Origin: Paraspadella gotoi
Taxonomy: Eukaryota; Animalia; Chaetognatha
Reading direction: 5' to 3'
Assembly: GCA_051294375.1 (NCBI GenBank)
Contig: JBJCIZ010000205.1
Location: 1 to 41,717 of the forward strand
DNA length: 41,717 bases
Shown in pieces: positions 3,490 to 41,717 of this stretch. Below the pieces are notes generated by a model. That model saw only the letters and a program-made list of their open reading frames with translations, did not search any database and was not told the origin of the DNA. A program made the translations under genes and the position numbers. Positions within the stretch are counted from its first letter, which is position 1. Each line of letters starts with the position of its first letter.

Positions 3490-3730
3490 ATTTCCGTCCC
3501 TTTTTATTCTGATTTCCATTCCTTTGCTACTTGTCCATCCTTCCCGATTTCTTCCTTTCTATTCCCTTCCATTTTCTCTCTATTTCCTCCTTTCTATCCC
3601 TTTCCATTTCTCTCTATTTCCTCCTTTTCTATTCCCTTTCCATTTCCTCTCTATTTCCTCCTTTCTATTTCCCTTTCCATTGTCCTTCTCTATTTCCCCT
3701 CCTCCTTCCCTCCTTCCCGTTCCTTCACTT
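3490..3730. repeat. Pyrimidine-rich low-complexity repeat (~35-40-bp period: ctctatttcctcctttctattccctttccattt)
   Basis: Recurring tctatttcctcc / ttccctttccatt blocks. Confidence 0.75.
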
Positions 3731-10182: not shown

Positions 10183-10740
10183 AATGTTCATCATTATCAC
10201 TGTCATTCATGGGATCTTCATCATTTTTATGTCATTCAAGGGTATCTTCGATCATTATTACTGTCATTCAAAGGGAATCTTCATCTTATCACTGTCATTC
10301 AAGGATCTTCATTATTATCCACTGTCATTCAAGCGATCTTCATCATTATCACTGTCATTCAAGCTGATCTTTCATCATTATCACACTGTCATTTCAAGCA
10401 ATCTTCATCATTTTGTTCCACTGTCATTTCGGGCGATCTCATCAATATCAACGTCATTCTAAAAGCGGATCTCTCACATTATTCAGTCATTTCAAGCGAT
10501 CTTCATCATATCGCCGGTGTCATTGCAAAGCAATCTTCATCATTATCACTGTTCATTCAAGCGCATGCTTCCATCAGTGGCACTGTCATTCAACGATTCT
10601 TCATCATTATCCCTGTCATTCAGCAATCTTCCGTATCATTTATCACTGTTTCATTCAGCGATCTTTCATCAGGTATCACTTGTCATATCAAGCGATTCTT
10701 CATCCATATCACTGTCATTCAAGGATCGTCATGCATAATC
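10183..10740. repeat. 30-bp minisatellite, roughly 18 degenerate copies
   Basis: Consensus atcttcatcattatcactgtcattcaagcg. Confidence 0.93.
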
Positions 10741-11062
10741 ACGCTCGTTCGTCTGGCTTGCGTTTATCGTCCTCGCTTCGTTGCGCACGAGTTGCCGGAC
10801 ATTGCCGCTCGTAGTTCTGCTATCAACTCTGCAAAGGCCACTTAGCGGAATTCAAAAACAGTGCCGCGAGCGCCAGGGAAAACTCGTAACTGTCATATGG
10901 CACAGTGAACGAGTAGAATATGGAAATCACATTTAGTACAAAGTAGATACTCTTGATATGAAGCGCTTCATATTCATCATAAAATATTCAAGTAAAAAAA
11001 AAACAAAAAACTGAAAGATATAATGAGGAAAGACGAATAAAAAAAAAAAAAAATAAAAAAAA

Positions 11063-17678: not shown

Positions 17679-18034
17679 AATTACGTAAATAGGACAAGGG
17701 ATTTTCTAGGCGGAAACCAAAGTGGATTTTATGTCTTTCAGAATTAAAGAGCAAATTATATACCAAGAAGGTTGTCATCTAGTAGCAATATGAAGTGGCA
17801 GAAGTGAATAATACAAGTTGGGTCATCCTATTTTTGATACCCTGGAATCGGATCGGAGGTCAAGGGTAAAGTGTACAGCCGGAAAGAAGCAGTGCCATCT
17901 GCCCATTGTGCGATGCATTTGTGTCTTTCAACCAATGAGAATGTTCCATTCTAACTATCCCGGCGGAGTTTGCGTCGCGTCGCGCGATGCCGATTTCGAT
18001 TCTGTTGGAGTCGTTGATTGCCTCTGACGATGCG
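17679..18034 (-). repeat. 3' LTR (~355 bp) following env
   Basis: Inverted homolog of 26220-26545. Preceded on the minus strand by a PPT; ends ...tatttacgtaatt, after which host-like DNA begins. Confidence 0.85.
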
Positions 18035-18046
18035 TCCCCCCCCTTC
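18035..18046 (-). promoter_or_regulatory. Polypurine tract
   Basis: GAAGGGGGGGGA on the minus strand, between the env stop codon (18069) and the LTR start. Confidence 0.8.
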
Positions 18047-18068
18047 GCTCAGACGACGGCGTACGCGG

Positions 18069-19936
18069 TCAGTCGGTAGCTGGAGTTGCAACCGCGAGGG
18101 GGACGAAGATCCTGTTCTGAACCTGTTCAAGGCTCAGCATCTCCGGTTGTCGTGGTGCCCATCTGGACGAGCAGGGCGGGCAGCAGTAGCAGGCGATGGC
18201 TATGCCTATTATTATTATTAAGGCGATAGTGACGAATGGTATGAGATTGGTTTGCGCATCGGCAAGCGCAAGCCCATCTTGGTAGATCTCCAAATATTCT
18301 TTTGATTGTTGTATATGAGGATCCCCTCACAATTTCTCCAGCGTGTTTCGTGAGCTCCTGCTGGTTTTTTGNNNNNNNNNNNNNNNNNNNNNNNNNGAAA
18401 TTCCCCGAACCTTGAGGTATATTTGTTGGCTGTAAACGGAGACTCGAGTCGTGGATGGTCCGGGATATTTGCGCTGGTTAAGCGGACATAATCGTCGTGT
18501 TTTTTCGCCGTCCATGGGTGGGCGGTAATCACCACCCATGAGGTAGCCATGAGGTAGATGGGCGGCGGTGAGCATTCGGTCGTTGTTGATGACTGTATCA
18601 CATGATGATGGATGGCATGCCGGAATGCTTCCTGTCCTCTGAAGGTTANNNNNNNNNNNNNNNNNNNNNNNNNNNTTTTTCGAATGTGAGCGAGCGTCTG
18701 GTCACATTTGGCAGTGACCAATAATTCGCCTCTTAGGATTGCGATTACCCCTCTTTTTANNNNNNNNNNNNNNNNNNNNNNNNNCTACTTAGATATGAGA
18801 TTCCCACACTTTTTAGAAATGTTGTCGAGGAGGGGTTGTTACGGCGAGCGATGCTGCACTGCTTGTGCTTCTGCGACCTTGAGGTCGCAGATCTCTTTCG
18901 CATCGCTTTGGAGAGCACATGAGTTTTCCAGTGTTGTCCAGCGCCAGCTTGATCCTTCTTCCGCAAGGCCTGTTACGAGTTCTTTCGTCGGAGCGTCCAG
19001 ACTCACGCGTCGCGTGACGTGTGTTGTGAAATAGAAGTGAGGAGAGCTTGTCTCCTCGACGCTGATGTCACACCCAGGCACGTTCCTTTGTTTTCCATCC
19101 ACGCGGAGCGTAAAAAGAATCTTATTGTCTGTTTCACAAATGGGTGCGCAGCGTTCATAATTGCTCAGTGATCCCGGTCGGATGAAGGAAGTGAGGCATT
19201 GTTTCCANNNNNNNNNNGCATCTTCTTTAACTGCCTTACTGTCTTTGCATGGTGTTTTTCGGTTTCTCAGGGTGCAGTTCTTCAGTGCTTGCTCTCTATC
19301 TCCGTCGGTGAGGCTCCGGATGACTACTTAGATATGAGATTCCCACACTTTTTAGAAATGTTGTCGAGGAGGGGTTGTTAGGCGAGCGATGCTGCACTGC
19401 TTGTGCTTCTGCGACCTCTGAGGTCGCAGATCTCTTTCGCATCGCTTTGGAGAGGCACATGAGTTTTCCGTGGTGTCAGCGCCAGCTTGATCCTGTCTTC
19501 CGCAAGGCCTGTACGAGTTTCGTCGGAGCGTCAGATCACGCGTGACGTGTGTGTGAAATAGAAGTGAGGAGAGCTTGTCTCCTCGACGCTGATGCTTCAC
19601 ACCAGGCACGTTCTCTTGTTTTCCACTCACCGGAGCGTAAAAAGAATCTTATTGTCTGTCCAAAATGGGGTGCGCAGCGTTCATAATTGCTCAGTGATCC
19701 GTCGGATGAAGGAAGTGAGGCACATTGTTCCAGCCAGCTGAAGCATCTTCTTAACTCGTACCTGTCTTTTGCATGTGTTTTTCGGTTTCTCCAGGGTGCA
19801 GTTCTTCAGTGCTTGCTCTCTATCTCCGTCGGTGAGGCTCCGGATGAAACCGTCGGCGCTGCGAGCTATTGGTCCCTGCAAGGCCCGAATATGCTCGACA
19901 AGTTGGATTCTCCAGGCAAGGATTCACTCCGCGGGT
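18069..19936 (-). CDS. env: Envelope glycoprotein, central and C-terminal part with TM anchor (frameshifted; contains a 539-bp duplication)
   Basis: WENPTC (reconstructed across indels), KILFTL, PGCDISVEETSSPHFYF, EICDLKVAEAQ, GVIAILRGELLVTAKC, TFRGQEAF..TTTECSPPPIY..W, TM LIPFVTIALIIIIGIAIA followed by CYCC and a short tail. Parallels recalled chuvirus G motifs CGxxxxxTEHPKL, KCxLE, AGEVxHIIKC, GTxxxCxxxxPxxY. Confidence 0.78.
18785..19847. repeat. Tandem duplication of ~530 bp (18785-19323 and 19324-19847) inside env
   Basis: Both units run ctacttagatatgagattccc...gaggctccggatga and differ mostly by indels; flanked by 25-N gaps. Confidence 0.93.
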
Positions 19937-20060
19937 NNNNNNNNNNNNNNNNNNNNNNNNNAACCGTTCGGGGCGGCCTTTGCCGATTATTTGGTCCTGC
20001 AGGCCCGATGATTGGGCTCGACAAGTGATCTCGCCAAGGCAATCAAAGGGGAATTCCCCT
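19848..20060. repeat. Noisy ~90-bp duplication either side of a 25-N gap
   Basis: aaccgt..ggtcc(c)tgc..ggcccga..gctcgacaagt occurs at 19848-19936 and again at 19962-20060. Confidence 0.75.
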
Positions 20061-23000
20061 CGCCCTCGACACGCTCGCCTTTTGTTTTGCCTCTGTCGGG
20101 TTAGTAGATCTCGAATATTTCAAGAGAAAATTAAACAAAAAAAAACATAGGGAGTCAAAGAATTGGAAAAAGTCTGGAAATGTTGTTTCCTCCCTTTAAC
20201 AAAAAGGAATTCCCCTCGCTCTGCTCCCCCATTTCCTCTTTCTTCATATGGCCCATCATTCCCCTCAATCTCATTCCTCACCATCGTCCTTGGGTGACCG
20301 TTGATGAGTGCTTTCTCCCGGCGTCATTCACCCGGCAATCCGAAATCTTCGGCTGTTGAGCGCTTCAATAACGCTCGGAAGACGCAGTCTTATCTGGGTA
20401 GCCACTCTTGCCGGGTCGACAGCTTACGAAGCTTGTCTGTTCTCGTGCAAAGGATGAGTGACGGAAAGTTTACGCTCGGGCCGGCGTCGATTCGCGCTGG
20501 CAACCGCGGGCTCAATGGCGGTCCTGTCTTCCTCCGTTCGGGCGACCGCTAAAAACGGCTCTCGCGCCACGGAACGGAAAGAAGCACGCTGCCGGGCGCA
20601 CGCCGCCGATTGCTGGGCAACAAAACAGCGTCGTTTCGAAAGGGAAAAAAAGAAAAAACAACTGCAGAAGAAATTCCTTGAAAAGATGTCCAATAAAATG
20701 AAAGGCCGGGAATCATTTATTTGTGTTAGCGTTTTTATAATAAAGCTGAACCCCGTCCTTCCCTTCCTCTTCCCTTCCTTCTTCCCTTCCACTTCCTCGT
20801 TCCTCCTTCCATGTAATTCCACTTCTCCTTTCTCCAACATTCTTTATTTCTTCACTGTCGCCTTCGCCAACGTACATTTTCCTTTGTTTAGTTTTTTACT
20901 ACTATCGGGAAATTATTTTGTTGTTTTTTGAGAAATAATTTTTTTTGTATACATAGGAGTTGAATTCATCGCGCGATTCAATTTATGTTCAATTTATAAA
21001 CGAAAAAAAAAAATCGTCGGGCGCCATTTTTTTTTTTTACGCTCGAAAGATCATTTAATTGCGCCGCTACTTTGCTGTTTTTCTGCTTTTTATGCTTGTT
21101 GACAGTGAATGAATGTTGAAGTGGGGAATGTGCCTGGATTCATTGTTTTACGATAAATAAGAGGACAATTGTAAATAGTGATCAAAAATATTAATGTTAA
21201 TCTAATCATGAACAATAAATCCACGACGAAGCTTGACAGATTACAAACAAAAAAAAAGCGTATTGCGACCGGAACTTAGTCCAGCGTTCACCAAACCCTT
21301 TTTTTTTGTTTTTGGCTTTTTAGCTTATTAATTTGCAAAATTAAAGTCTATCTGCCATCGTTTTTGCCATTCTAAACGTCGTTGTTAGGAAGGAGTTTTT
21401 TCTTAAGTGTTTCTGATTTGCACCATCGAGTGTTGGGTCTTTTTTCCCCCGAAAGACTGAGTTGTTTTTTTTTTGAACTACGTCACCCTAGTCGATGGCT
21501 ATGCCGCCAACCGTCTCTTCATTCCGTAATCGTTTTTTATTTAAAAAACATGACGCCTTCTTTCTTATCTAACAATTACGTGAGAATTTTTTTCAAGAGA
21601 AACTGTATCTTGAACCTCCCAATATTCTTATTCATGAATTTTTTTTTTTTTCGGTTCGTCGACAAAAGAGTTGAATTACAGTTCTTTTCTTAGTCAAGAC
21701 AAAAGGTGCAATCAATTACGAAACTTAAGACCAAGAGATTTCACCTCGTTTCGTGGGTCACAAAGAAATTGTGCCGACGATATCTTTCCACGAGGTCCAG
21801 ATCCAAAAGGGAATCTTCCCGATTCAGATTCGTTAAGCAAAAGTCGTGCGTCTTTTCGTCGTCTCTCTTAACGAGTGAGTACATCGAGTCGGTCGTTTCG
21901 TCGTCGTCGTTGTTGTCACCGTTTGTGAGGACGATAAAGTTGAGGAAAAAACCTGGGAAGAGATTTGCGATTCCTTGTGTTTTCGGTATCGGAGATGGAT
22001 GGACGAGAAGGAAGAAGAAAGTTTTTTTTCTCTCAACTTCTCGCCATCGTCTTCAACAAGACCCCCCCCCCCCAAAAAAAAAGTAAGTATGGTTATGATT
22101 CGGGATTTATGATTAAAGACGGAATCTATGACTATGACCGCTCTGCTATGCTTCTCCACCAGATGTGTTATGTCTTAATCTGAATCATATACTTTCAATA
22201 TCAAATTTATCCCAAGTTTCTTTGCCTCTTCTTCCTTTAGGCATCCGAATGCTCGTGTTGTCAAACAAAACACAAACAATAAGAGGCAGAAAATCAACAA
22301 ATATTCGATTTCCATTCCTCCGTGAATACCCAAACAAGAGCATCATCTTCCTGTCGCTTCTTCCATATACTCGATCCTAATCTCCTCCAACGCTACTGGG
22401 ATGAAACATTGTCTGTTGTACCGCAGGAGAGCGGGACAGCCTGCAGGATCCCCACCGGCTGGAATAGGCTCGTGCTCGCCGTATAACCTTCTGGCGCGAC
22501 CTGTCATCTAACGAAGACAAATGAAGCAGTTCGCCGTGCTCGAGTGATGCCGCCAGTCTGCTTCAAGGTAGACACTGCGGCCGCCGTCCCTCACACAAGG
22601 AACACCTTCCCCTGCTGCTGGGTGTCTCCGAGCTTCCTGGGCGGCGCTGAAGCTTTCGGCCACAGCAGCGAGAAGGATGATAGGAATGAAGGGCCGAGTC
22701 GGGTCACTCGTTTAAGGGACGAGGATGAGGTGACGGGTTGTGAGCTGAATGTGGTCCAATTTGGATCCTGTGGCTGGAATTTGTCGTGGGATTGTGTGGG
22801 GTTTGTGATGCCGCAGATTTAGGATTTAGGGTGTAGTGAGGTGACTTTTCAGTGTTTGAGTGATTAGTGGTGATGGATAGTGTATCAACCTTTGTAGCAT
22901 ATATTAGATATTAGACGCCGCCAGATATTTGTCCAGCGTTCTGTGCAGCAAGATCGGGTGCGCGTCTTACTTGAATCCCTTGGGGTTTGAAACGATAGAT

Positions 23001-25018
23001 ATTGATCGTTTGTAAGATGTGCTCTAGTGTAGGGAATATCCCTCATACAGAACCTGCCAAATAATATTAAAAAAAAAAAAATAAAAACACCAAAGAAAAA
23101 CTTGCCTCTTTCTATTCTTTCCTTTTTCCCTGACCTCCTTGCCACCGACCCACGGCGGCGGCGGACGGAACTCCATACCACGCCTTTCCTCAACCCCCGC
23201 CGCCGCGCATCGCCACTTCCGTCCCCAGCCCCCGCGAGGTGAGAGGACGCGCCTCTCACCCGGGATATCCGGGCGTGTCCCCCGACGTGGCGTCGCGTCA
23301 AACTAGGATATCTGACGATCTGATTAAAAACGAAGATCGGGAACGGAGAGAGGAGTCTCTCACGCCGCGACCTGAGAAGGAGAAATGGAGGAAAGAAAAG
23401 ACGACGACGTAGGCATGAGGAGTATCGAGGTAGCGATGGAGGAAAGAGGGAGAAGAAAGAGAGGCCAAGAGCTGATCGGAAGTGAGGGAGATAGGGTGGG
23501 TTCTACAGCGAGGCTCGATCGATACGGCTTCGTCCCAATCGGCGATCGAAGTGCCACGAGCGATACGATCGCGTCGACGCGTCGTAACGTCTCGATGGGA
23601 CGCGAGATCCTGTCCGCCAGCGCAATACGAATACCGCGACGCCGAGACGCGATATACTCGTCGCGCGGCGCGACTTCTCTAATAGCCAGGATGAGCGTCG
23701 ATCTCGCGAGACACGCCCTACTATTCACATTAAGTTGGTGAAGACGACTGACTGACGATTCGTCTGCGCCCAGTTGTTCCTCCGCCCTCGTGTATGTTCG
23801 CCGTCCACCTGGGATGTTTGTCGACCTCCCCTACGCGTCCACGGCGGCCCCGCGGGCTTGTTTCGCTGCAGCTGGAGGAGCGGCCTCCGTCTTACTCCCG
23901 CGCCGCGAGTGGCTTTGGTCAGACGGCCGCGGAGAGGGGAGTCGTCGGGGAAGCAGACTGTCGTCTATGCGCCGCACGCAGTAGTGGACCCAGAATCGAG
24001 GATGACGGGGCAAGCGATCAGATACTGGAACGACTGATGGCGACAGAATCAAACTCCTCTCCGGCCGCCGACGCCCTCGTCTCATTTCAGTATCATAACG
24101 ATATATGCGCTTTCGGAACGCTTCGAACCCACGCTTGTTTTTAGTGCAGAAATAAGTCTAAAAACAGACTTTTGAGCAGCCAAGTACACGTGCCGTAAGA
24201 GGGATCCGTTCCTGTTAAAGAGAGGAAGAAGGCGCCGGCACGTCTGTTATATGCCGGTGTATCAGTTGACGGAGACGAGAGTAAGGCTCAGAAATTGGAC
24301 GTGAAGGAAATCAGATAGAGACACTCGAAATATTCGTCTCTCTGAGTCTTGGATCTTTTGTGTATCGGACTCGACGAAGGATTACGACGACGGAGAAGAA
24401 TCCCTACGGCCGTAGTCTGAAGAAAGACTGCGTTCGGACTGAGTATAATCTTGATAAGGACGAGGAAAGAGTTGATTTGTGTTGGGCTGGCTCGAGCTAG
24501 GAAAAGAAGAGGACTGTCGCCGAGACCGAAGGGATTCATCAACGCGGACAACGAAAAGTTAGTAGAGGAATTAGAACCGGATGATTTTCTCTTGCTCCGA
24601 CTGGTTCGTTCTCAGGTTGTATTTTATTTAGCCGGATTCGTTCGATTTTTACTTGGGATTTCGAGGGAGGAGGAGCAAGTGAGGGTGCGTGTGATGTGGG
24701 CGAAAAAGACATTTGGTGGGGAGGCGGGGCTTGGAGTCGCGCAGGTATTTTATAGGAAGAGAAAAGAGAAAAGGCGCGTTTGGAATTTGTTTCTGGGTCT
24801 TAGTGTGAGGTATGCGGTAGGAGAAGAGCAGGAGCAGAGAAAGAAGAAAGAGGAAAAGAAGAGGAACAGGACAAGAAAGAGGAAAAGGAAAGAAGAGGGC
24901 ACGGAAGAGAGAGGAGAGGAAGAGGAAAGGAAAAGAAAAGATGAGAATTAGAAAAAATGTAAGAATGACCTCTCATTCTTCATTTTTATGTGGACATGAA
25001 TTAAATAAAATCTCTCTC

Positions 25019-25684
25019 TTAGGTGCATGATTGTGCTGCTCTGTCACAATCGGTTTGTCTCGGCATGTTGTTGAGGTTTGATAGCTGGATCTTTTGCTCG
25101 TAGAGGGTGAGGTTAATGTTGAGTGTTGCACGCTCACCATCATACATATAGTCATGAAAAATTAATTTTTCGCCGGTACAGTAACCATCCGCGTCGGTTG
25201 TGCCCACTTCGTAAGTAGCTTGATTAAGTCCAGATTTGCTTCCCTTGATCCTTAGTGGTTCCATCGTTCCAGCTCGATTTGCCAANNNNNNNNNNATGTT
25301 CTCCAGGGAGACGCTTTCTCCTTTGTGGAGGTTCAGGCATTGGCTTCTTGTGAGNNNNNNNNNNTCCACAGCTTTTAGATTTGGGTACTGGATGGACCAC
25401 CATCCACACACGCTTCCAGAGGCCATGATTGTGAGATCACAACCTTTCCCATCGTGTTCTTCTTTTCCGGGGATAAAAACTAACTCGCCACGCATGATCT
25501 CTTCTGTGACTNNNNNNNNNNTATCGCAGTGGTGCGGGTCGAGCATAGTCGCGGCGTGGTTTGACGTCTTGTTGCAATCATATATTTGTATGACGTCTGT
25601 TGTTTGTTTGTCCTCTTTTTCTGGGGTTGCTGAGCTCTCGGTGACGAGGAGTGAGGCCCAGGCGAAGATGACGACAAAATTCAT
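25019..25684 (-). CDS. env: Envelope glycoprotein, N-terminal ~220 aa (chuvirus-G-like, gB-type class III fusogen)
   Basis: Signal peptide MNFVVIFAWASLLVTESSA, then IYDC..LDPHHCD..GCDLTI..VCGWWS..LTRSQCLNLH..GTTDADGYCTG..ATLNINL..TDCDRAAQSC. Same cysteine and motif order as chuvirus glycoproteins as I recall them (GYDC..ECD..CKIEI..CGMHS..CxxMH..GSxxxDGxCxG..CxxxxxxC). Sequons NKT, NLT. Confidence 0.8.
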   Translation of the reverse strand: MNFVVIFAWASLLVTESSATPEKEDKQTTDVIQIYDCNKTSNHAATMLDPHHCDXXXXVTEEIMRGELVFIPGKEEHDGKGCDLTIMASGSVCGWWSIQYPNLKAVXXXXLTRSQCLNLHKGESVSLENXXXXLANRAGTMEPLRIKGSKSGLNQATYEVGTTDADGYCTGEKLIFHDYMYDGERATLNINLTLYEQKIQLSNLNNMPRQTDCDRAAQSCT

Positions 25685-26219
25685 CTTACCTTTCATATTT
25701 TTTATCAAAACAAAGGGGGATGTCTGTCTCTCTGTCTGTGCCGTCCGTCCTCCGTTCCGCCGTCCGTCCGTCCACCTTAACAATAAACAATAATTACTCT
25801 TATTGATGGATAGATTGGAAAATGAAATTTTGTTATGTGGTTAGGGAAAGTGTGTGATTGCAGCTGGATATGAAGTTTCGATGAATCGTCGAGTGGAAAG
25901 TGAGTTTAATTTGAAAAACAACACAAAACCTGTTTTCACTAAATTCGTTAGTGCTTCTTTTTGCTTTTTAGTATTAAATGTAAATGCAAGATGATATTAA
26001 ATTTAATCAAATAATTAATCAGTTAAGTTAATCAATTACGTCAATTTACATAAACAATTAATTACTTAATCAGTCAATTTAATCAAATCAAAAAGAACAG
26101 TTTGGGATTAAGTTAATTAATTGTTGACTTAAATTAATTATTTATTATTAAGTTTAATTATTAATTATTTATTACCGGATAATGATCGGGTCGGGAGATC
26201 GCGAGATCGGTTGTTGTTT

Positions 26220-26545
26220 CATCGCAGTAGGAATCAAACGTCCAGAATCGAAATCGGCATCGGCGACGCGAGCAAACTCCGCGGGAAGTAGAATGGGAAC
26301 ATTTCTCATGGTCGAAAGACAGAACTGATCGGCCACATGCCGGCAGGGATGGGCTTCTTTCCGGCTGTTAAACTTACCTCTACTCGATCCGATCGCAGGG
26401 CCTATTTATAAATAGGGGACCCATAAAACCCATTCGCTACTTGATTTACTTGCCTCAGAATTGGGACACGTCTTGTATATCATTGTCTGATCTGAAGAAA
26501 TAAAATCCACTTTGGTCTAGAAAGTCCTCTGCATATTTACTTAAT
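26220..26545 (+). repeat. 5' LTR (~330 bp) of the plus-strand copy
   Basis: Homologous to the reverse complement of 17679-18034 (shared blocks: cagaatcgaaatcggcatcg, aaactccgc, cttctttccggctgt, ataaaatccactttggt, tatttacNtaat). Contains TATAAATA (26407-26414) and AATAAA (26499-26504) and is followed by a PBS. Confidence 0.85.
26401..26416 (+). promoter_or_regulatory. LTR TATA box within a perfect 16-bp palindrome
   Basis: cctatttataaatagg is its own reverse complement and lies ~90 nt upstream of AATAAA inside the LTR. Confidence 0.55.
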
Positions 26546-26546
26546 G

Positions 26547-26566
26547 TGGGTGACAGGGTGGATTCG
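26547..26566 (+). promoter_or_regulatory. Primer binding site, tRNA-Leu-like
   Basis: tgggtgacagggtggattcg directly after the LTR resembles the complement of tRNA-Leu 3' ends (TGGTGNCAGNNGTGGGATTCG), allowing for indels. Confidence 0.7.
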
Positions 26567-29500
26567 ATACACCACGTTCTCCGGGGAAGACAGAACGCAA
26601 GCTTACGCGCCAACAAGAACACGCACCCTTCATATGAAGATGGATTCGCCCGCGCCCAACGATTCCCACCTTGCCGAACCAGGTGGAAGAAAGGGCTGCG
26701 ACGCCAATCAAGCTGCCGCGCCAACACAGACTGGTTGAGCAGAGCTCGCCCTGCGGATCATCGAGTTTCCACACATCTCGAAACTACGAGCTATTTGCAG
26801 CGCACTGCCAACATTCGGGCAATTTGAGCACGGCGAGGAGGTCACCCTCCAAATGCTCCATAGCATCATCAACTGATTGTCAAACTTTGCAAACAGGCAA
26901 GAAATGGGCTGTCCTCAAAGTCGCGTTAAGGACTTGTGAGGCCGGCCTTGGATCAGAAGCATTGACGATCTCCGCATGGCATGATGAAAAGATTGATGAC
27001 CCAAGGTCAGCAGCAACAGCCAACGGAGACCGGTTCAATAAAGACTCAAGGGTTGGCCCAAACCGACCCCTCCCGGAGATCTCCCACCTTCGCGACGCCT
27101 GGCACGCCATGAAGTCAACCCCCTAGAACCTTCCTCAGCGCAAACCACAGACAGTGTTTTTGCCAAATCCTCGCGGAAAACCCACCATCGAGGGTGGAAG
27201 GGAGCGACCCCACCTTCACTATTCCCCGTGCTGAGCAGCCGAATAAAGCTCGAAAAAAGGAGGTCACGACGAATCCTCCGGGGCGGAATTCTCAGAAGTT
27301 TTTACGAAGGCCTTCAAGGGACTCACGACGCCAGATTAAAGCTGGGACAGAACTCGCGCCCTTCTCGCAGAGATAAAATCGCCAGCGATACCGTCGAACC
27401 TATAAATCAATCAATGTGGGTGGGACAGCTAAGGGCATTCTGCGAGGGGCCTTCCACCATAAGCGCTTACCGAGGCCTCGCCGACTGGCAAAAAAATCGA
27501 AGTGGGACGCGCAGATCCCACGCAAGAATATGGCTGGCACTGGTCAGCACGCCGCCCAAGGAGAATTTCGCGGCAGTCAGGGAAAAAGACAGGGCTCCAT
27601 TCCCTGACTTATGTCACCTAAATTGCTCGTGGAAGCCCTTGAACCCTACGTGCCCTGAATCACGTCAGAGACTTTGGAAGTGGACGACGCTGCTCTAAAC
27701 AATGGCGAAAACTCGTCGCTTAGGAAAGCGACTAGAGTATAAACTAAGAGGTACTCACAAAAGACCTCCGACGTCGGCTGTCAGGAAAATCGTCAGACTG
27801 TGTTGGAAGAACGATAAAGAAAATGTCGCAATGCTCTGGTGCAAAAGGGGGCAGACCGACAAGGGATCCGTACGCCAGCGCCACATTCATGTTTATCCAA
27901 GGTCAATGTTGCAGGAAGGGATGACAAATGAGCGAGAGTGCCATGAAGAGCTCAAGGAAGGAGTTAGGGAGGAGACGGACGTCAAAGGCCGACGTCGAGA
28001 GGACGCTTACTGGAGACGCCGGGAGCGACGTTGAGCCCCAAACAGGGGCAACAGGAAAAAAAGCTCTGTACAGAATCGGCGCTGGAAAACGACTCAAAAA
28101 GCAAGCGTTGGCCGACGTGACGAAAGAAAAGAAGGAGAAAGCGCATTTCGGGGAAAAGGAGAGACATTGTTTAAATATTTAACCATGCTGTTGATGTTGA
28201 CTCTGCCTCTGATCTTGTACAATAAAAACGATTTTTATTACAACCGTGTCATATAGCAAAGAAAATGAGGAGAGATGAGAAAGAAAGACAAGAAAAACAA
28301 GCTAAAAGATTACTTACTAAGGAGCTGGAGAAAAAAGTGGATGGCCGATTAACACAAGGATGTTAACACCACCTCAGAGGAAAAGTAACCTGGTGGCACA
28401 GCAAAAAACTAAGGGCAAATCTACAGCATCGAGAATGTTCAAGCTTTTCAGACCCCTTGACGCCAACGAAATTTGCCCTCGCAACAAGATGTCATCACAA
28501 GATGGGTTGGAAAGAGTGGTCCCTCGCAGATATGGCTGGAAAGGAAGCATCATGTTCGCAGATCAAAGAGCCTGCGCCATAGTTACGAGGAGGGAAAAGC
28601 GAAACGACGCCAAATCATCTTAATCGCCAATCATCCAATCAATGCCAACAGCCGGATAAATCAAAGTCAAGCTCAACAAATCAAGTTACTCGACTCTCCC
28701 AATTCTACTGACCATCACTCGACCATATCAATCAAGGTCACCAGATTGTTCTCGCCCGATCGCCTTTTCCTCACCCACAAAAAAGGAAATAGGCAAACCC
28801 AACAAATAAGCGGGGAAAGGTTGGGCTTGGAAACTAAGGCCAGCGGCTAGCAAAGACATCCACATATTGCATAATAAGCGCGGCGAACAAACTGGAGAAA
28901 TCGCGTTCACCAGGCTACAATCAGACAGTAGCACACAGGAGTGTCACCAACCCGGAAACCTTCTCTACCTGTAAAAACCAAAGCGGAAAACCTACGAGAG
29001 ACGAAAGACTTGCCTGGCCTTCCGGAAGTCATCACCCACACATTGCAAGAGACCTGGACCCAAACCAGGGACGAGCAAGAACCTCGCTTGCCACACAGGA
29101 CGGCAAAGCTACATGCCCGCGGTTAATCGCGAGGGGCGCCCGCTAGACTGCTTATCATCGATACGGCGCGCTCAATCAACACGGTGCCAAGAAAATTTCG
29201 TTAGAAAAGTGGGGATTTTGTCTAGCCACAATCTACCGACGGAACGCCGCTAACGCATTACCACGGCCCACCCGGGAAACATCAACTTTAAACAGAAGGA
29301 AATCAACCTAAGGGTGATGTTTCAAAATGGGGTATTACGGAAATTTTTTAGTGTCAGCTGACGAAAACGACAATGACATTAATTCATTGAACCGCCATCA
29401 CCAACCAGGCCCGCCGAACCAACCTGGGTAGTACAAATCCGTCCGACAAAAGGCAAGATTTGCAAATCAGCTTCAATGGATAATGCAAACCACGGTCACA

Positions 29501-32500: not shown

Positions 32501-34861
32501 CACCAAGGAGGACAGTTGCAATTCGAGAGAAGTATATGGCTCCCCCAACAAACAAAAGGACCTAAAAATATTCAGCAGACCACATAAACTGGGCCAAGTC
32601 AGTAGTCTGATGATGAGAGCCGGCCACACCCACTCTGGCACCCGTCAGGCCTGGACCCATCCAACAATATTAAAACATCTGGATTCCCTTCAAAATACCC
32701 GGAACAGCACGTGACTAGTGCCATAAAAGTTCAACGGCAGCCAGCTACCGACACATTACGATCGGATCTCCCCGATGACTTCATTAATATCTAATTGGGA
32801 CCAGAGGCCACGAAAAATCCTCCAACGCCACCTCGCCCAAACCTCTCACAACCATAGAGGTTCGTGGAGGCGGCGCCAATCATGGAGCTTATTGATAGAT
32901 AGCACCCTCAGAGGCCGACGGTCATGGGTCGTCGAGCAATATCCGAGGTCGCCATGGAAATGCTGAACCACAGAAAAATGCTGAACTGTCCCGCTTGGCC
33001 AACCGAGATTAATAAAGATGGCAAAGTGAGGACGAATCTTTCAAACAATTCGAGCTTCTAAAGAGGCGACCGCGAAAAAGGCGAGAAAGACTTAGAACAA
33101 GAAAATTGCAAAAACGCCAAACAATCACGAAAAATATGTCCAATGCCAGTACGTGGACTGGACATCACCAACAACGACATTCTTATCATTAAAGGATTCA
33201 AAAGCTGACACGCCTCAAAGAATTCGCTTACTCCGCCACACAAAAAGCCGGAACATCCATCACCCAAACGTTTTCCGATGAACGAACTTTGGACATCCAG
33301 GCGCGAGTCGGAACAGCATTCATTACCGCTCAGGTATATCTCTGGCCCCTGGATTCATCAGCTGCTTTGCAAGCAAAGAGCCTCAGAAACGGATTAACTG
33401 CGCAAGAACAGACAACAAGACATAATGGGAGACGCGTCAGCCCCAAACCTCGCCATTCACACGCCTTGGAATCGCTAGCAATTGAGTTCATTGTGCATCT
33501 CCCGCTAGTTGGGCCGGATCATGAGTTACGATATTGGTCAGCGTCACACTACTGTAACCGCAGATTCTGCTACACCGCTTCGGGGCGCATCCATTATGCG
33601 TCGGTCTGATTGCCGCGCACGAATAGTAAAGAACCCTCGACGAAGAAGATCTTCATCAGACACGCGGATCCGTTTACATGCGATACGTCGAAATTTCAGC
33701 ATCGCGAGTGCATACACAGTAAACGGAATCAGCATGAAATCATACCATTCGTGCCGATACTGGGAAATGAAGGCGTCCTCGTTAGGGCGAAAAGACTAGT
33801 AATAGGGGAGAGTAGGGGACATAGGCGATCCCAAGCTCTGCCGGCAAAGCTGTGGATGATTCAACCCAGCAGAGGCGTCGGACAGGCTGCGCCACATTTG
33901 ATGTACTGCCTCCCTGCAACCGACTCCTATAGTTGGGCTGGAAACACGGACATGTCGCCACATGGAATGCCTCCGTTTGGTTTCACAGACGAGAATAGCT
34001 TAGAAGCGCAGACGATTTCACAAAGAGGAAACTTATTCGACTTCATCAGACAAAGGGCGACAAACAGGAAGGCCCAAGCACAGCTGGGGGAGACCAAGTA
34101 TGTCAGGAGAACGAATAACTGCTACAAACCAATCATGGCCAGAAGGAAACCCATATAAGAAACCTGGAAGAAATCAAGCGTCGGGTGTCTGGGTCCTAGC
34201 CAGACGAGATCGTGATACATGATCGGGACCTAGGCCACAACCGGAAATAAGTGTTAAAAAGGATAATATTCAGGCCCTCAAAGGTTTATAGAAAGATGAC
34301 GAAATCACCTATGTGTCTCGTGATTAGCTGGTGTCGAAACCTGAATATATCACAGACGTCGCCTCAAGACTAACACGAAAAAGAAGCCAGGCCCGAATAG
34401 GATAATCCCATCTCTCGATGTAAATACCAAAAGAGTATAATAGAAGTTAGAGACACAAAAAGGACGCGAGGCGAAAAACAAAAAGAAACAAAAAAAAAAA
34501 AGCCAGAAAAACAAGATAACAAAAGACGTCCAAAACGATACACAAAAGACGCGACGGTCGAAAACCAGAGAAAGCCACGAGAACAAGATGGAACAAAGAG
34601 ACGTCCAAAACGACGCGAGACGGAAGAAGAACCAAAGCATCAACGTAAGCCCCGTCTCACACATAATAATAAAGCCAAAAGACAGAAACACTAAAGGCCA
34701 ACACCGGAACCATGTCGAGTATAAAAAAGGGACCAGGAGAGACAAGCAAACTTTGCATTCGAGGATATGCTCCTCTCATACTCCACCTCTCCAGAGAAAC
34801 AAAAAAAATATAAATTGGTATTCTCTCTTCTCGCTCTCAAGAAGAAAAGAAGAAACAAATC

Positions 34862-35086
34862 AAAAGTCTTTTTAAAGACTAGCCAACGTCTTTTCAAGAC
34901 TATTCTCTAAAAAGATCCAAAAACAAAACTATATATTTAATAACCAAAGGTCTTTTTTAAAGACTAAGCCCAAAAGTTTTTCAAGACTATTCTAAAACAA
35001 GATCAAAAAAAATATAATAATAACCAAAGAGTCTTTTTTAAAGGGACTAAGCCCAAAGTTTTTTTAAGGATAATTCTAAAAAGATC
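34862..35086 (+). repeat. ~80-bp tandem repeat, about 3 copies, downstream of integrase
   Basis: Unit aaagtctttttaaagactaagcc..aagttttcaagactattctaaaaagatc..aaaa..tataataacc repeated until the N gap. Confidence 0.88.
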
Positions 35087-35111
35087 NNNNNNNNNNNNNN
35101 NNNNNNNNNNN

Positions 35112-36355
35112 GAGGGCCTGAATATATCCTTTTTACTTTATTTCCGGTTGTGGCCGTCCCGGTCATTATCAGATCTCGTCTGGCTAGGACCAGATCACCG
35201 ANNNNNNNNNNNNNNNNNNNNNNNNNNNNNNNNNNNNNNNNNNNNNNNNNNNNNNNNNNNNNNNNNNNNNNNNNNNNNNNNNNNNNNNNNNNNNNNNNNN
35301 NNNNNNNNNNNNNNNNNNNNNNNNNNNNNNNNNNNNNNNNNNNNNNNNNNNNNNNNNNNNNNNNNNNNNNNNNNNNNNNNNNNNNNNNNNNNNNNNNNNN
35401 NNNNNNNNNNNNNNNNNNNNNNNNNNNNNNNNNNNNNNNNNNNNNNNNNNNNNNNNNNNNNNNNNNGATTGAGTATTGATTTCATGGCTGATCCGTTTAG
35501 CTGTGTTGCACCATCGAAATTCACTTCCATGTAAGATCCGTGTTGGAGGAAGATCTTTTCGTCGANNNNNNNNNNNNNNNNNNNNNNNNNNNNNNNNNNN
35601 NNNNNNNNNNNNNNNNNNNNNNNNNNNNNNNNNNNNNNNNNNNNNNNNNNNNNNNNNNNNNNNNNNNNNNNNNNNNNNNNNNNNNNNNNNNNNNNNNNNN
35701 NNNNNNNNNNNNNNNNNNNNNNNNNNNNNNNNNNNNNNNNNNNNNNNNNNNNNNNNNNNNNNNNNNNNNNNNNNNNNNNNNNNNNNNNNNNNNNNTATGT
35801 CTTTGTGTGTCTGTTGCTTTGGCGCAGTTATCACAGTTTCTGAGGCACTTTGCTGCAGCAGCTGATAATCCAGGGGCCGAGATATACTNNNNNNNNNNNN
35901 NNNNNNNNNNNNNNNNNNNNNNNNNNNNNNNNNNNNNNNNNNNNNNNNNNNNNNNNNNNNNNNNNNNNNNNNNNNNNNNNNNNNNNNNNNNNNNNNNNNN
36001 NNNNNNNNNNNNNNNNNNNNNNNNNNNNNNNNNNNNNNNNNNNNNNNNNNNNNNNNNNNNNNNNNNNNNNNNNNNNNNNNNNNNNNNNNNNNNNNNNNNN
36101 NNNNNNNTGAAAACGTTTGGTGATGATTTCCGCTTTTTGGGCGGGTAAGACGAATTTCTTTGTAGGCGTGTCAGCTTTGAATCCTTTAATGATAAGAATG
36201 TCGTTGTTGGTGATGTCCAGGTCGTCTAGGCAATTTGACAAGTATTTTTCGGTGATTGTTTTGCNNNNNNNNNNTTTCTTGTCTAAGTCTTGTCTCGCCT
36301 TTTCGCGGTCGCCTCCTTTTAAGGCGTCGATAATTAGTTTGAAAGATTCGTCCTC
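35112..36355 (-). CDS. pol: Integrase (zinc finger, DDE core, GPY/F module), largely N-masked
   Basis: EDESFKLIIDALK; KFVLPAQKAEIITKRF(H); APGLSAAAAKCLRNCDNC (CxxC 35824-35835); IFLQHGSYMEVNFDGATQL; GDLVLARRDL..KVKRIYSGP. The plus copy shows GHPGASR at ~33290. Confidence 0.9.
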
Positions 36356-37028
36356 NNNNNNNNNNNNNNNNNTCTCGGTGGCAAGCGGGACGAGTTCAGG
36401 CCGTTTTTCCTGTGGTTCAGCAATTTCCATGGCGACCTCGGCTTCTGTGGCATCNNNNNNNNNNTCGAGGGTGCTATCTATCATAAGCTCCTGATTGGCG
36501 CCGGCCTCCACGACCTCTATGGTGTGAGAGGTTTGGGCGAGTGGCGTTGTGGGATTTTCGGTGGCCTCTGGTCCCAATTGGATATTAATGAAGTCATGTG
36601 GGAGTGCGTCAATGTGTCGGGTGTCTGCCTTGAAAACTTTTGGCCGTCCCCTGCGTTCCGGGTATTTGAGGGAATCGATTTTTATATTTTGGATGGGTCC
36701 TAGGCTGACGGGTCGCAGTGGGGTGGTCCGGCTCTCATNNNNNNNNNNGCTGACTTGCCCAGTTATCGTTCTGAATATTTTTAGTGTCCTTTTGTTTGTT
36801 GGGGAGCCATATATTCTCTCGAACTTGCAACCTGTCTCCTTGGTGGNNNNNNNNNNNNNNNNNNNNNNNNNTTGGAATCTTCAATCCATCATGAACAATA
36901 TGGTTATCCCGGTAATCTCGCCTGAGGCATTTCTTAATTCGGTGGTGACCAGAGGACTCCAGTCTATTGGTCCGATAATGGTCCTGATAAAAGTGTCAGG
37001 ATCCTTCGTTTTGGCTATTGCCATATAA

Positions 37029-37285
37029 TTTTTTCAGATATTAGGCCTTCTTTGTAAGAATTGCTTACAAACTCAAAGAATTTTGCTCTGAAAAGTTTTA
37101 GGCAGTCTCCTTCCACTAACACTTTTTGCCACTAATGCCAGTGGTTGGGGCATGATATCTCTCTCTTTTTCGATATTGGCCTTCTTTTGTAAGAATTTTT
37201 GTCTTACAAACTCAAAGAATTTTGCTCTGAAAGTTTTGGCGTCTTCCACTAACACTTTTGCCACTAATGCCAGTGTTGGGGCATG
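37029..37285. repeat. ~120-bp tandem duplication within pol (37029-37154 vs 37166-37285)
   Basis: Direct repeat of ttttc(a)gatatt...ttggggcatg; present only once in the plus copy (32230-32350). Confidence 0.88.
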
Positions 37286-37431
37286 TCCCGTGATGAGCTC
37301 CAGGTGTTCTGGGTTTTGCTGGTCGTATACAGGGTTTTCTGCAAAGCCTGGTTCGTAATCTCCGGTTACATCAAAACCCGCTGGGAAGAAAGGTGTGTCG
37401 AGAGGCGTCACCTGACCCTGATCTGTGAATC

Positions 37432-37835
37432 NNNNNNNNNNNNNNNNNNNNNNNNNNNNNNNNNNNNNNNNNNNNNNNNNNNNNNNNNNNNNNNNNNNNN
37501 NNNNNNNNNNNNNNNATCTCAGCACGTTTGTGGGTAACAGCTGTTGTCTGTCATGTTGTAGATCCATCACCCTCTTGAAATATTGTGAATCTGTGACTAG
37601 AGTGACGTTTCGCCCGCAGGTGTAGCCTTTGAACTTACGAACCATCATATTAAAAGNNNNNNNNNNTAGGACGTTGATATGCTTTATCCTATATTCATCT
37701 GGGAAAGATTTTGAATGGAATGACAATGGATATTCGACGCCATCTGCCGTGGCGGTAATTAGTCNNNNNNNNNNNNNNNNNNNNNNNNNNNNNNNNNNNN
37801 NNNNNNNNNNNNNNNNNNNNNNNNNNNNNNNNNNN
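37432..37835 (-). CDS. pol: Ty3/Gypsy-type RNase H domain (partly N-masked)
   Basis: GVEYPLSFHSKSF...HINVL...MVRKFKGYTCGRNVTLVTDSQ matches the Gypsy RNase H pattern P(I/V)AFxSRxL...KFxxYLxGxxFxLxTDH. Confidence 0.88.
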
Positions 37836-37938
37836 AAGTTTAGTCCAGGTGATGACCTTATCTCTTCGACGAGCAGCTGTAGCATCTCCATGTGCTTTGC
37901 TGTCAGCTTGAACTCCTTTTNNNNNNNNNNNNNNNNNN

Positions 37939-38880
37939 CGTGAAGAGGTTGGGCAATGTAGGAAAAACGATGTGTGAAGCATCTGTAGTAATTCAGTGAT
38001 GCCAACATTGCCCTAAGCTCCTTTTGCGTTTTGAGCGTCTTCAGTTTGACTTCGACGGCATCGAGCTTTTCCCTTTGTGGTAAGAGTTTGCTTTTGGAGA
38101 TGCTAAAGCCCAGGATTTTGATATCTTCCTTGCGCAATAGCACACTTTTTGTCCATTTGAGGACTACGTTCTCGTCTCTGCATCTTTGTAAGAGATCACG
38201 TAGCCTTTGAGCCATGTCCTCTGGAGATTTTGCTGTCAAGACTCAGACATCACGTACGTAGACAAAGGAAACTCTACGTCGGTCCCCAGTAGGTCTTGAG
38301 AAGATTTCGTCAGAATTGACTGGAGGACGTTGACGCTGTTTACTCCTCCCATGGGCAGCTTGTTCATCACACAGTTGTGGCCGGCTCCGGCGAAGGTTGT
38401 AACTGGTTTGCATCGGTCTGAGAGATTGACCTGGTGGAAGCAAGCTAAGATATCCACTGAACATTGGAGTTCGTGTGGCTTATNNNNNNNNNNTATTGAC
38501 GCTATGGTCTGCGGTTCTGTCGCGTAAGTGGAAATATTGTTATTAACGGCTGAGAGATCACAGATTAATCGCCACTGTTTTGCAAAGGTCTCGTCATTCA
38601 TTTGGTCTTGGCCTTCGGCGATATGTCCTGGCTTTTNNNNNNNNNNNNNNNNNNAATAGGCCTCGTTCCTTGTCCTGGAGACGATGCCAGCCTTCTCATA
38701 AACTTCCAGATATCGTTTGAGGGCGGCCTTTTTGACGGGTCCTTGATTGGCGAATTTTGGCTTCGGGAGATCCTCATTGGTGTAGCCCAGGTCTACTCTG
38801 TAGTTNNNNNNNNNNTCTTTGCAGTCATTGATCGACTCTCCAAATACATCTCGATAATCCCATACTATGTCCCAGACAAG
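37939..38880 (-). CDS. pol: Reverse transcriptase domain (frameshifts near 38880 and 38245, probably sequence errors)
   Basis: WRLICDLSAVN, CSVDILACFHQV, PVTTF, KLPMGGVNS, LKWTKS, ILGFSIS, NYYRCF. The YxDD motif is garbled at ~38245-38260. The plus copy at 31121-31148 (tacgtgttatgatgtgatcttgacagca) suggests YVDDVILTA. Confidence 0.93.
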
Positions 38881-39529
38881 TTGGGCTTTTCTCTGAGGCT
38901 AGGGTCGACGTCCTTAAATGGCTTTAGAAAAGCTTCTTTTCCCCGGTCGTCGTGCTTTTGTTTTCGCTTTTTCGAGCTTCCTCTTGCTTCGAGTTCCTCG
39001 GCACTTGGCTTATGATGCACTATGGTTGTTGCCGGGATGTGATCTTTTCTGACTTTTCTGAGATGAGGCTCTTTCCCTGTTAGGTCAGCCTGTACTGGTT
39101 CGGCTGTGTCGTCGGTTTCGAGGTGTAATTCAGTTTTTGCCTCATTAGTGATTAAGGGGCGCGCTGTTCCCCAGTGACCTGGCTCGGCGTCTAATTCTAT
39201 CCCCTCTTTCAGTTGGTCACCTTCCGCGATGTATATTTTATCTTCATTTTCGGCCTCGATGATCCATCGCNNNNNNNNNNATCGCGTCCCGGTTAGAGTT
39301 TTCCAGAAGGCCTTGTTGGATGTTAACCTAATCTTTCCATCTTGGTCTCTTTCGGCGTGTAGAGGCAAGGTTGTTTGTTCATCTATGCTTCCTCGTGCAA
39401 GCCATCTTGCAGCTTTCAGCGCCTCATACTTGTTCTCGAACAAGTGTGTGACTGGTTTATTATCCATTGAAGCTATTTGCAAATCTTGCCTTTTGTCGGA
39501 CGGTTGTACTACCCAGAGTTGGTTCGGCG

Positions 39530-39813
39530 GGCCTGGGTTGGTGATGGCGGTTCCAATGATTATGTCATTGTCGTTTTCGTCAGCTGACACATAAAAAATT
39601 GTCCGTAATACCCAGTTTTGAAACATCACCCTTAGGTTGATTCTTTCTGTTAAAGTGATGTTTCCGGTGGCCGTGGATAATCGTAGCGGCGTTCCGTGGT
39701 AGATGTGGCTAGACAATCCCCACTTTTCTACGAATTTTCTTGGCACCGTGTTGATTGAGGCGCCGGTATCATATAAGCAGCTAGCGGGCGCCCCTGCGAT
39801 TACCGCTGGGATG
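39530..39813 (-). CDS. pol: Retropepsin-type aspartic protease domain of pol
   Basis: IPAVIAGAPASCLYDTGASINTV (DTG at 39762-39770), flap LSTATG, closing motif DIIIG. Confidence 0.93.
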
Positions 39814-39829
39814 NNNNNNNNNNGTCCTG

Positions 39830-41717
39830 TGTGGCAAGCGAGGTTTGTGTCGTCCCTGGGTTTGGGTCCAGGTCCTTCTTGCAATGTGTGGGTGATGACT
39901 TCCGGAAGGCCAGGCAAGTCCGTTTCGTCTCTGTAGGTTTCCGCTTTGGTTTTTACAGGTAGAAAGGTTTCCGGTTGGTGACACTCTAGTTCTACTCGTC
40001 TGATTGTAGCCTGGTGAAGCGATTCTCCAGTTTGTTCGCCGGCTATTATGCAATATGTGGGATTGTCTTTGCTACCGGCTGGCCTTAGTTTCCTCAAGCC
40101 CAACCTTTCCCCGCGTTTTGTTGGGTTTGGCCTATTTCTTTTTTGTGGGTGAGGAAAGGCGATCGGGAGAACATCTGGTGATTGATTGATTGGTCGAGTT
40201 GATTGGTCGAGTAGATTGGGAAGTCGAGTAACTTGATTTGTTGAGTGACTTGTTGATTTATCCGGCTGGTTGGATGATTGGATGATTGGGCGATTAGATG
40301 ATTTGGCGTCGTTTCGCTTTGCCCTCCTCATTAACTTGGCGCAGGCCTTTGATCTCGAAATGATGGCTTTCTTTCCAGCCATATCTGCGAGGGACCACTC
40401 TTTCCAACCCNNNNNNNNNNTGAATTTGTTGGCGAGGGCAATTTCGTTGGCGTCAAGGGGTCTGAAAAGCTTGTACATTCTCGATGCTGTAGATTTGCCC
40501 CTTAGTTTGTTTGCTGTGCCAGCCAAGGTTTTTACTTTTTCTCTGAGGTGGGTGTTAACATCCTTGGTGTTAATCGCCATCACTTTTTCTCCAAGCTCCT
40601 TGTAAGTATCTTTTAGCTGTTGTTGTTGTCTTTTTTCTANNNNNNNNNNNNNNNNNNNNNNTATGACACGGTTGTAATAAAAATCGTTTTTATTGTCATC
40701 AAGATCAGAGGCAGAGTCAACATCAACAGCATGGGTTAAATCTACAATGTCTCTCCTTTTTCCGAAATGGCTTTTTCTTCCCTTTTTTTCGTCACGCCAG
40801 CTTGGCTTTTTGTCGTTTTTCCAGTCGCGATTCTTGTAAGGNNNNNNNNNNNNNNNNNNNNNNNGGCTGCGTCGCTCCCGGCGTTCGTAGCGGTCCTCTC
40901 GACGGTCGGTTTGACGTCCGTTCCTCCCTAACTCCTTCTTGAGCTCCTTCATCATCTNNNNNNNNNNGTTCATTTCCTGCAACATTGAGCCTTGATAAAA
41001 TGATGTGGCGCTGGCGGTCGGATCCTTGTCGGTCTGCCCTTTTTGCACCAGAGCATTGACCAATTTTTCTTTATCGTCTTCAGACACAGTCTTGGCACGA
41101 TTCAACTGAAGGACTGCACGTTTGACAGCGATCACGGAGCACAGTCTACATATTCTTCAGAGGTTAACCTCTTGTTAGTATTATATACTACTGATCGCTT
41201 TTCCTAAGCGACGAGTTTCGCCATGTTCGAGCAGCGTCGTCCACTCCAAAGTCTCTGACGTGATTCCAGGCACGTAGGGTTCAAGGCACGAGCATTTGTG
41301 CGACATAGTCAGGGATGGAAGCCCTGTCTTTTTCCCTGACTGCGCTCGAAATTCTCCTTGGCGGCGTTGACCAATGCCAGGCCATATTTGGCGTGGATCT
41401 GCGGGTCCACTTCGATTTTTGCCTCGGCGAGGGCCTCGGTAATGCTTATGGTGGAGCCCTCGCAGAATGCCCTTAGCCCAGCCACATTGATTGATTTATA
41501 GGTTCGACGTATCGGCTGGCGATTTTATCTCTGGCGAGAAGGGCGCGTAGTTGCTGGTCCACTTTATCTGGCGTCGGTGAGTCCTTGAAGGCTTCGTAAA
41601 AACTTCTGAGGAATTCGGCCGGAGATTCGTCGGACCTCCTTTTTTCGAGCTTTATTGGCTGCTCAGACGGGGAATATGAAGGTGGGTCGCTCCTTCCACT
41701 CTCGGATGGTGTTTCCT
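39830..41717 (-). CDS. gag: Gag-like protein, partial; frameshifted above ~41135, in frame with protease below
   Basis: N-terminal part of ORF 38865..41135 is helical and basic (RREDRYERRERR, KKGRKSHFGKRR) and lies directly upstream of the protease. No CCHC knuckle visible. Assignment is positional. Confidence 0.7.

What the first reader, a model, noticed from the sequence alone, without database searches (positions are those of the whole stretch)
17679..41717. Candidate invertebrate endogenous retrovirus: Ty3/Gypsy element carrying a chuvirus-like (gB-type) envelope
Seen in sequence: a signal-peptide, Cys-rich, TM-anchored glycoprotein gene stops 23 nt before a PPT and LTR, and the same LTR recurs ahead of a PBS and Gypsy gag-pol. 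Reconstructed layout: LTR-PBS-gag-pol-(repeats)-env-PPT-LTR. Established: classical insect errantiviruses use a baculovirus-F-related env, and chuvirus glycoprotein capture is best known from BEL/Pao elements. Inference: this Gypsy lineage uses a class III fusogen related to that of negative-strand RNA viruses and may form enveloped particles. gB-type env has been reported in some invertebrate retroelements, so novelty of the family needs checking. Pol and env are not cleanly contiguous in this assembly.
Basis: partly seen in the sequence, partly recalled or inferred. Interest (0 to 1): 0.9.

Follow-up and report, generated by a model that had tools for sequence, protein, structure and literature searches.

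The report
Gypsy retroelement with chuvirus-type envelope
The same terminal repeat sits in front of a Ty3/Gypsy jumping gene's gag-pol and behind a broken glycoprotein gene related to chuvirus and xinmovirus envelope proteins, so these are likely one retrovirus-like element predicted to move between cells; this kind was described in 2026, and this copy is likely scrambled by assembly errors.

Summary
The parts are real. A ~350-nt LTR lies behind a glycoprotein gene and purine tract (18032-17680, minus) and recurs before a tRNA-Leu-like primer site and gag-pol (26220-26545, plus; score 246, shuffles at most 36). Pol is Gypsy-type (best solved relative Ty3 RT, E 3.6e-11); integrase is seen only as motifs. 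The env pieces match Pfam Monjiviricetes_fusion below cut-off, line up in order on a 717-aa homologue that passes it, and a model of the N-terminal 202 residues finds xinmovirus and chuvirus glycoproteins (E 1e-6) and, weakly, herpes gB. Env is in pieces, and the two gag-pol copies differ by 12-15% indels but 1-2% substitutions, as raw long reads do, so the window is probably an assembly mosaic. No contig bridging pol and env was shown; the link rests on the shared LTR and collinear order. The kind is published: Chary and Hayashi (eLife 2026) report Ty3/gypsy elements with Chuviridae-like, gB-type env across invertebrates. Verdict: new, divergent member of a known kind; low interest.

The parts
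17680..18032 (-). 3' LTR (about 350 nt, error-rich)
   Evidence: aligns with 26220-26545, score 246 vs shuffle max 36
18036..18046 (-). polypurine tract
   Evidence: GAAGGGGGGGG, 3 nt before the LTR alignment starts; one of 6 such G-runs in the window, so its position is what counts
18069..18757 (-). env C-terminal part with transmembrane segment and Cys cluster, in at least two frames
   Evidence: 18221-18757 matches homologue P0013 residues 463-543, E 5e-9 and PF24664 positions 367-449, E 0.014; hydropathy 2.9 in 18072-18326; that last frame has no significant match to P0013
18785..20040 (-). env middle part, error-rich, with a 540-nt tandem duplication (19847-19324 and 19323-18785)
   Evidence: P0013 residues 348 onward match from 19156 (phmmer E 0.005); copies differ by 0.6% substitutions and 7.6% indels
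20040..25021 (.). 5-kb unrelated, low-complexity, error-rich stretch that splits env
   Evidence: no Pfam match above cut-off, no match elsewhere in the window
25022..25696 (-). env N-terminal 225 aa with signal-peptide-like start
   Evidence: PF24664 Monjiviricetes_fusion E 9.2e-6, 24.3 bits, cut-off 27; 34% identity to P0013 79-270; model matches xinmo/chuvirus glycoproteins
26220..26545 (+). 5' LTR of the inverted, error-rich copy
26547..26567 (+). primer-binding-site-like sequence, tRNA-Leu type
   Evidence: 2 edits from the complement of a 12-nt tRNA-Leu end listed in PMC13524379 supplement 1; 1 of 8 such matches in the window, and the one at the LTR end; Rfam and ARAGORN found nothing
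26634..34480 (+). error-rich inverted copy of gag-pol (limits approximate)
   Evidence: aligns with 41711-35112; 1.1-2.1% substitutions, 12-15% indels
34858..35086 (+). about 84-nt repeats after pol
   Evidence: self-alignment
35112..41717 (-). cleaner gag-PR-RT-RH-IN copy, broken into several frames, cut by the window end upstream and by an N run downstream
   Evidence: Asp_protease_2 32.9 bits over cut-off 24.3; RVT_1 E 6e-5; RT_RNaseH E 0.006; Ty3 RT 4OL8 E 3.6e-11; integrase by position and motifs only

Best explanation
A Gypsy-type gag-pol and a broken glycoprotein gene related to chuvirus and xinmovirus envelope proteins share one LTR, so they are likely parts of a single LTR-gag-pol-env-LTR errantivirus family whose pieces were likely scrambled in this assembly. 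Shown: the LTR pair, purine tract, primer-site-like sequence, PR-RT-RH order, Ty3-like RT, and env homology. Inferred working: RNA from the 5' LTR is packaged by Gag, reverse-transcribed from a tRNA-Leu primer and the purine tract, and integrated; env is likely read from a separate (spliced or internally started) mRNA, enters the ER by its signal peptide, and is predicted to form a membrane-anchored class III trimer on budding particles that would fuse with neighbouring cells, most plausibly germ cells, as Drosophila gypsy does with a different Env. Total length would be roughly 11-12 kb.
For: Same LTR after env+purine tract and before primer site+gag, both alignments ending at the expected signals. 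On the minus strand the cleaner blocks run gag-pol (41.7-35.1 kb), env-N (25.7-25.0), env-middle/C (20.0-18.1), purine tract, LTR: the canonical order. Env pieces map in order on P0013 (79-270, 348-541), which passes PF24664 at 76.6 bits. Model of env-N (14-row alignment, pLDDT 61.5): 13 BFVD matches at E<=0.001, 12 of them named glycoproteins of xinmo-, chu- and related negative-strand RNA viruses, 1 unnamed; herpes gB fills 22 of the top 23 VIA rows. Duplicated segments differ by indels, not substitutions. In runs X6 and X7, 5 contigs each run on past the junction near 35.1 kb with letters unlike the window (table 7). Contigs of all 4 runs laid cover env-N as well as pol.
Confidence: 0.75

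Rival explanations
1. Env and gag-pol belong to different members of the family: a sibling subfamily, or a non-autonomous env-only element that shares the LTR and is mobilised in trans; the assembler pulled them together through the shared LTR.
For: LTR copies differ by 5.3% substitutions; many diverged subfamilies in the runs; no bridging contig shown; spacer and pre-env DNA do not match.
Against: Both LTR copies are error-rich, which inflates mismatches; cleaner blocks are collinear gag-pol-env-LTR on one strand; the layout and a Leu-type primer site are common in published gB-type elements (15 of the 18 rows shown with this tRNA end are ENV_HSV).
Confidence: 0.1
2. The layout is biologically real: an old, dead env-bearing copy into which a second copy inserted in reverse and host DNA inserted in env.
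For: Nested LTR insertions are common (established knowledge); env-N is bordered on both sides by non-element DNA, and the stretch before it has very high contig depth.
Against: The inverted copy differs by 12-15% indels with 1-2% substitutions and no transition bias (14 ts, 15 tv), unlike decay; it lacks a second LTR; junctions coincide with N runs and short duplications; contigs leave the window's sequence at the junction.
Confidence: 0.1
3. The glycoprotein is an endogenised gene of a chuvirus or xinmovirus that was copied into DNA by the Gypsy RT and joined to an LTR by template switching, a one-off fossil and not a working env.
For: Best structural matches are exogenous negative-strand RNA virus glycoproteins; PMC10084718 found such fossils beside fragmentary Gypsy copies without clear capture (passages).
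Against: Env ends just before a purine tract and LTR; closest sequence relatives are unnamed metagenome proteins at 26-39% identity, BFVD matches at E<=0.001 are only 14-22% identical; no other viral gene in the 88 flank frames scanned.
Confidence: 0.05

Closest known systems
GAG-POL-ENV Ty3/gypsy errantiviruses with HSV/gB-type ENV (Chary and Hayashi, eLife 2026, PMC13524379)
   Same: Gypsy-type pol, env after pol, signal peptide plus C-terminal anchor, Cys-rich gB/Chuviridae-like ectodomain, LTRs, tRNA-Leu primer site, size of order 11-14 kb.
   Different: This copy is broken and would fail their intactness filter. Its proteins are divergent from what my searches reached (pol 24-35%, env 26-39% identity). 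I could not place it in their tree or tell whether the family is among their 1512 elements, because their sequences and the host are not available here.
Anakin, mosquito BEL/Pao elements with chuvirus glycoprotein (Dezordi et al. 2020, PMC7642597)
   Same: A chuvirus-related glycoprotein inside LTR boundaries.
   Different: Backbone is BEL/Pao there; here RT-RNase H is closest to Ty3 and no BEL/Pao Pfam family was hit.
Drosophila gypsy/ZAM/Idefix errantiviruses
   Same: gag-pol-env between LTRs; the model for soma-to-germline spread.
   Different: Their env is F-type (baculovirus F related); here env matches Monjiviricetes_fusion and gB-like folds.
Xinmovirus and chuvirus glycoproteins (Monjiviricetes; Pfam PF24664)
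   Same: Profile and predicted-fold similarity over the N-terminal part.
   Different: Those sit in negative-strand RNA genomes; identity is only 14-22%. Similarity does not show which side was the donor.
Tor elements of Oikopleura (Henriet et al. 2015, PMC4402516)
   Same: Non-insect Ty3/gypsy elements with a membrane-bound glycosylated Env; env read from the LTR or an internal promoter.
   Different: No sequence comparison was made; cited only as the experimental precedent for how such env genes are expressed.

Membership tests
Ty3/gypsy LTR retrotransposon | two LTRs with primer site after the 5' one and purine tract before the 3' one | tested here: met
   the two LTRs are in opposite orientation in this assembly
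Ty3/gypsy LTR retrotransposon | RT and RNase H closest to Ty3/gypsy | tested here: met
   Ty3 RT 4OL8 E 3.6e-11, ahead of caulimovirus 4e-9 and foamy virus 1e-6; RT_RNaseH E 0.006; both database hits are Gypsy-type polyproteins. No tree or GyDB profile test.
Ty3/gypsy LTR retrotransposon | domain order PR-RT-RH-IN | tested here: inconclusive
   PR-RT-RH order shown; integrase seen only as a CxxC and a core-like motif read by eye (motifs recalled), no profile hit
Ty3/gypsy LTR retrotransposon | target-site duplication | not testable with these tools
   the two LTRs do not flank one intact insertion here; no genome is held
errantivirus with HSV/gB-type ENV (Chary and Hayashi) | env with signal peptide and C-terminal transmembrane anchor | tested here: met
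   hydropathy and position; no dedicated predictor was run
errantivirus with HSV/gB-type ENV (Chary and Hayashi) | ectodomain homologous to Chuviridae-like glycoprotein | tested here: met
   PF24664 E 9e-6 and 0.014 on two pieces; homologue P0013 above cut-off; BFVD matches E down to 1e-6
errantivirus with HSV/gB-type ENV (Chary and Hayashi) | five-domain gB-like trimer with fusion loops and cysteine bridges | tested here: inconclusive
errantivirus with HSV/gB-type ENV (Chary and Hayashi) | gag, pol and env in one element | tested here: inconclusive
   shared LTR and collinear order, but no bridging contig among the rows shown
errantivirus with HSV/gB-type ENV (Chary and Hayashi) | uninterrupted ORFs, copies over 98% identical | tested here: not met
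   not met for this copy as assembled; other copies not examined
GAG-ENV-POL variant (nematode, bryozoan, flatworm) | env between gag and pol | tested here: not met
   one 763-aa frame runs from the gag region through the protease with no env match
BEL/Pao Anakin | BEL/Pao-type pol | tested here: not met
   Pfam hits are Asp_protease_2, RVT_1, RT_RNaseH; best solved relative is Ty3

The most novel reading that the evidence does not exclude
A deep-branching Gypsy lineage, with no close relative in the protein collections searched, that took up a xinmovirus/chuvirus-type fusogen independently of the published gB-type clades, in a host group where only F-type errantiviruses are on record (for example, all 15 Malacostraca elements in the published table are F-type), and that is still spreading as enveloped particles in several subfamilies.
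Probability: 0.12. Interest if true: 0.5.

Novelty: new member of a known kind. Interest (0 to 1): 0.2.

Why it matters
As a kind it adds nothing new: gB-type env on Ty3/gypsy elements is published as widespread and ancient. How these class III proteins mediate entry, and whether the elements are infectious, is stated as open in that paper, but this broken, mosaic copy does not make the question easier to test. Its modest value is as a divergent data point for the pol/env trees, and possibly a new host group.

Full report
Setting. The window is microsatellite-rich eukaryotic DNA (63 tandem-repeat rows) with 30 N runs and long error-rich stretches. No genome is held and no host gene was found in 88 flank frames, so the host is unknown; 'invertebrate' is an inference from the kind of element.

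LTRs and priming signals. 18032-17680 (minus) aligns with 26220-26545 (plus) at score 246; 200 base shuffles give mean 21, max 36. No third copy exists in the window. The minus copy starts 3 nt after GAAGGGGGGGG (18046-18036). The plus copy ends 1-2 nt before a sequence two edits from the complement of a tRNA-Leu 3' end listed in the supplement of PMC13524379; 8 places in the window match that well, and this is the one at the LTR end. The bases that follow resemble the complement of a tRNA T-loop (recalled, not tested; Rfam and ARAGORN gave nothing). Termini and target-site duplication cannot be read.

Gag-pol. The cleaner copy runs on the minus strand from the window end to 35112 in several frames. 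Pfam finds an aspartic protease above cut-off and RT and RNase H below it, in that order. The RT-RH frame is closest to Ty3 RT among solved structures (E 3.6e-11), then caulimovirus and foamy virus; the two database hits are Gypsy-type polyproteins at 24% and 35% identity. Gag and integrase got no profile hit; integrase is inferred from position, a CxxC and a core-like motif, much of it lying in N runs. A second copy on the plus strand follows the 5' LTR and continues into about 84-nt repeats. It differs from the first by 1.1-2.1% substitutions and 12-15% indels, the profile of an uncorrected long read (established knowledge), not of an aged copy.

Do pol and env belong together? For: the same LTR bounds both, with the right signal on each side, and the cleaner blocks read gag-pol, env-N, env-C, purine tract, LTR along the minus strand. 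Contigs of four runs laid on 25365-41717 cover env-N and pol, and in X6 and X7 five contigs each leave the window's sequence at the junction near 35.1 kb. Against: none of the 15 joints shown (135 hidden) links pol to env; more than half of the contigs laid in each run are under 90% alike, so subfamilies exist; the LTR copies differ by 5.3% substitutions; and the spacer after pol does not match the DNA before env. I put the single-element reading, with a scrambled assembly, at 0.75.

How it likely works. Replication by LTR transcription, tRNA-primed reverse transcription and integration follows from the family. Env export, anchoring and class III fusion are predicted from sequence and partial fold. 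Separate env mRNA and membrane location have been shown for Tor elements (PMC4402516, passages); soma-to-germline infection is shown only for Drosophila gypsy (as stated in PMC13524379, sections 3 and 11). Nothing here shows expression or particles.

Prior work. PMC13524379 (abstract; sections 3, 5 part 1, 6, 7, 9 part 1, 11, 14, 15; term searches in supplements) reports 1512 env-bearing Ty3/gypsy elements, says the Chuviridae-like glycoprotein of mosquito BEL/Pao elements also lies next to gypsy pol, and found 114 such elements in one search. 'HSV' occurs 221 times in its Supplementary file 1; the 30 places I saw were all ENV_TYPE cells, from annelids, branchiopods, bryozoans, cnidarians and beetles. 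Of 18 rows shown with the same tRNA-Leu end, 15 are gB-type. All 15 Malacostraca rows are F-type. The element sequences are in a repository I could not reach, so this family may already be listed. PMC7642597 (abstract) describes the BEL/Pao case; PMC10084718 (passages) saw such glycoproteins beside Gypsy fragments without clear capture. Five paper searches were run. Two earlier scan notes on flatworm elements point to the same paper; they are not independent support.

Verdict. Observation confirmed; interpretation right in kind but already published; linkage likely, not proven. New, divergent member of a known kind; interest 0.2.

Noticed in passing
window 10187-10742: Minisatellite of a 30-nt unit, 17.5 copies, 75% matches, with a 99-nt higher-order period.
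   Followed up: no
window 3538-3711: Pyrimidine-rich 35-36-nt repeat, about 4.5 copies.
   Followed up: no
window 36110-37430 (minus): Long stretch, roughly 350-400 codons, between RNase H and the integrase zinc-finger region with no Pfam match; published errantiviruses carry mini or pseudo RNase H domains here. It includes a 120-nt local duplication (37031-37154 vs 37166-37285, 87%), probably an assembly error.
   Followed up: partly
window 25700-26180: DNA before env: AT-rich 20-24-nt repeats and a GGAC/AGAC microsatellite; contig depth reaches thousands near 26000, suggesting a high-copy host repeat. The microsatellite recalls Helitron-derived interspersed elements (recalled, not tested).
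   Followed up: partly
window 19850-20015: A short stretch of env is repeated on both sides of an N run, as when a gap is extended from both ends without merging.
   Followed up: partly
P0013 (ENA, 5582-nt contig): Full-length 717-aa env homologue; its contig is long enough to show whether an integrase lies upstream, but its DNA was not obtainable here.
   Followed up: no
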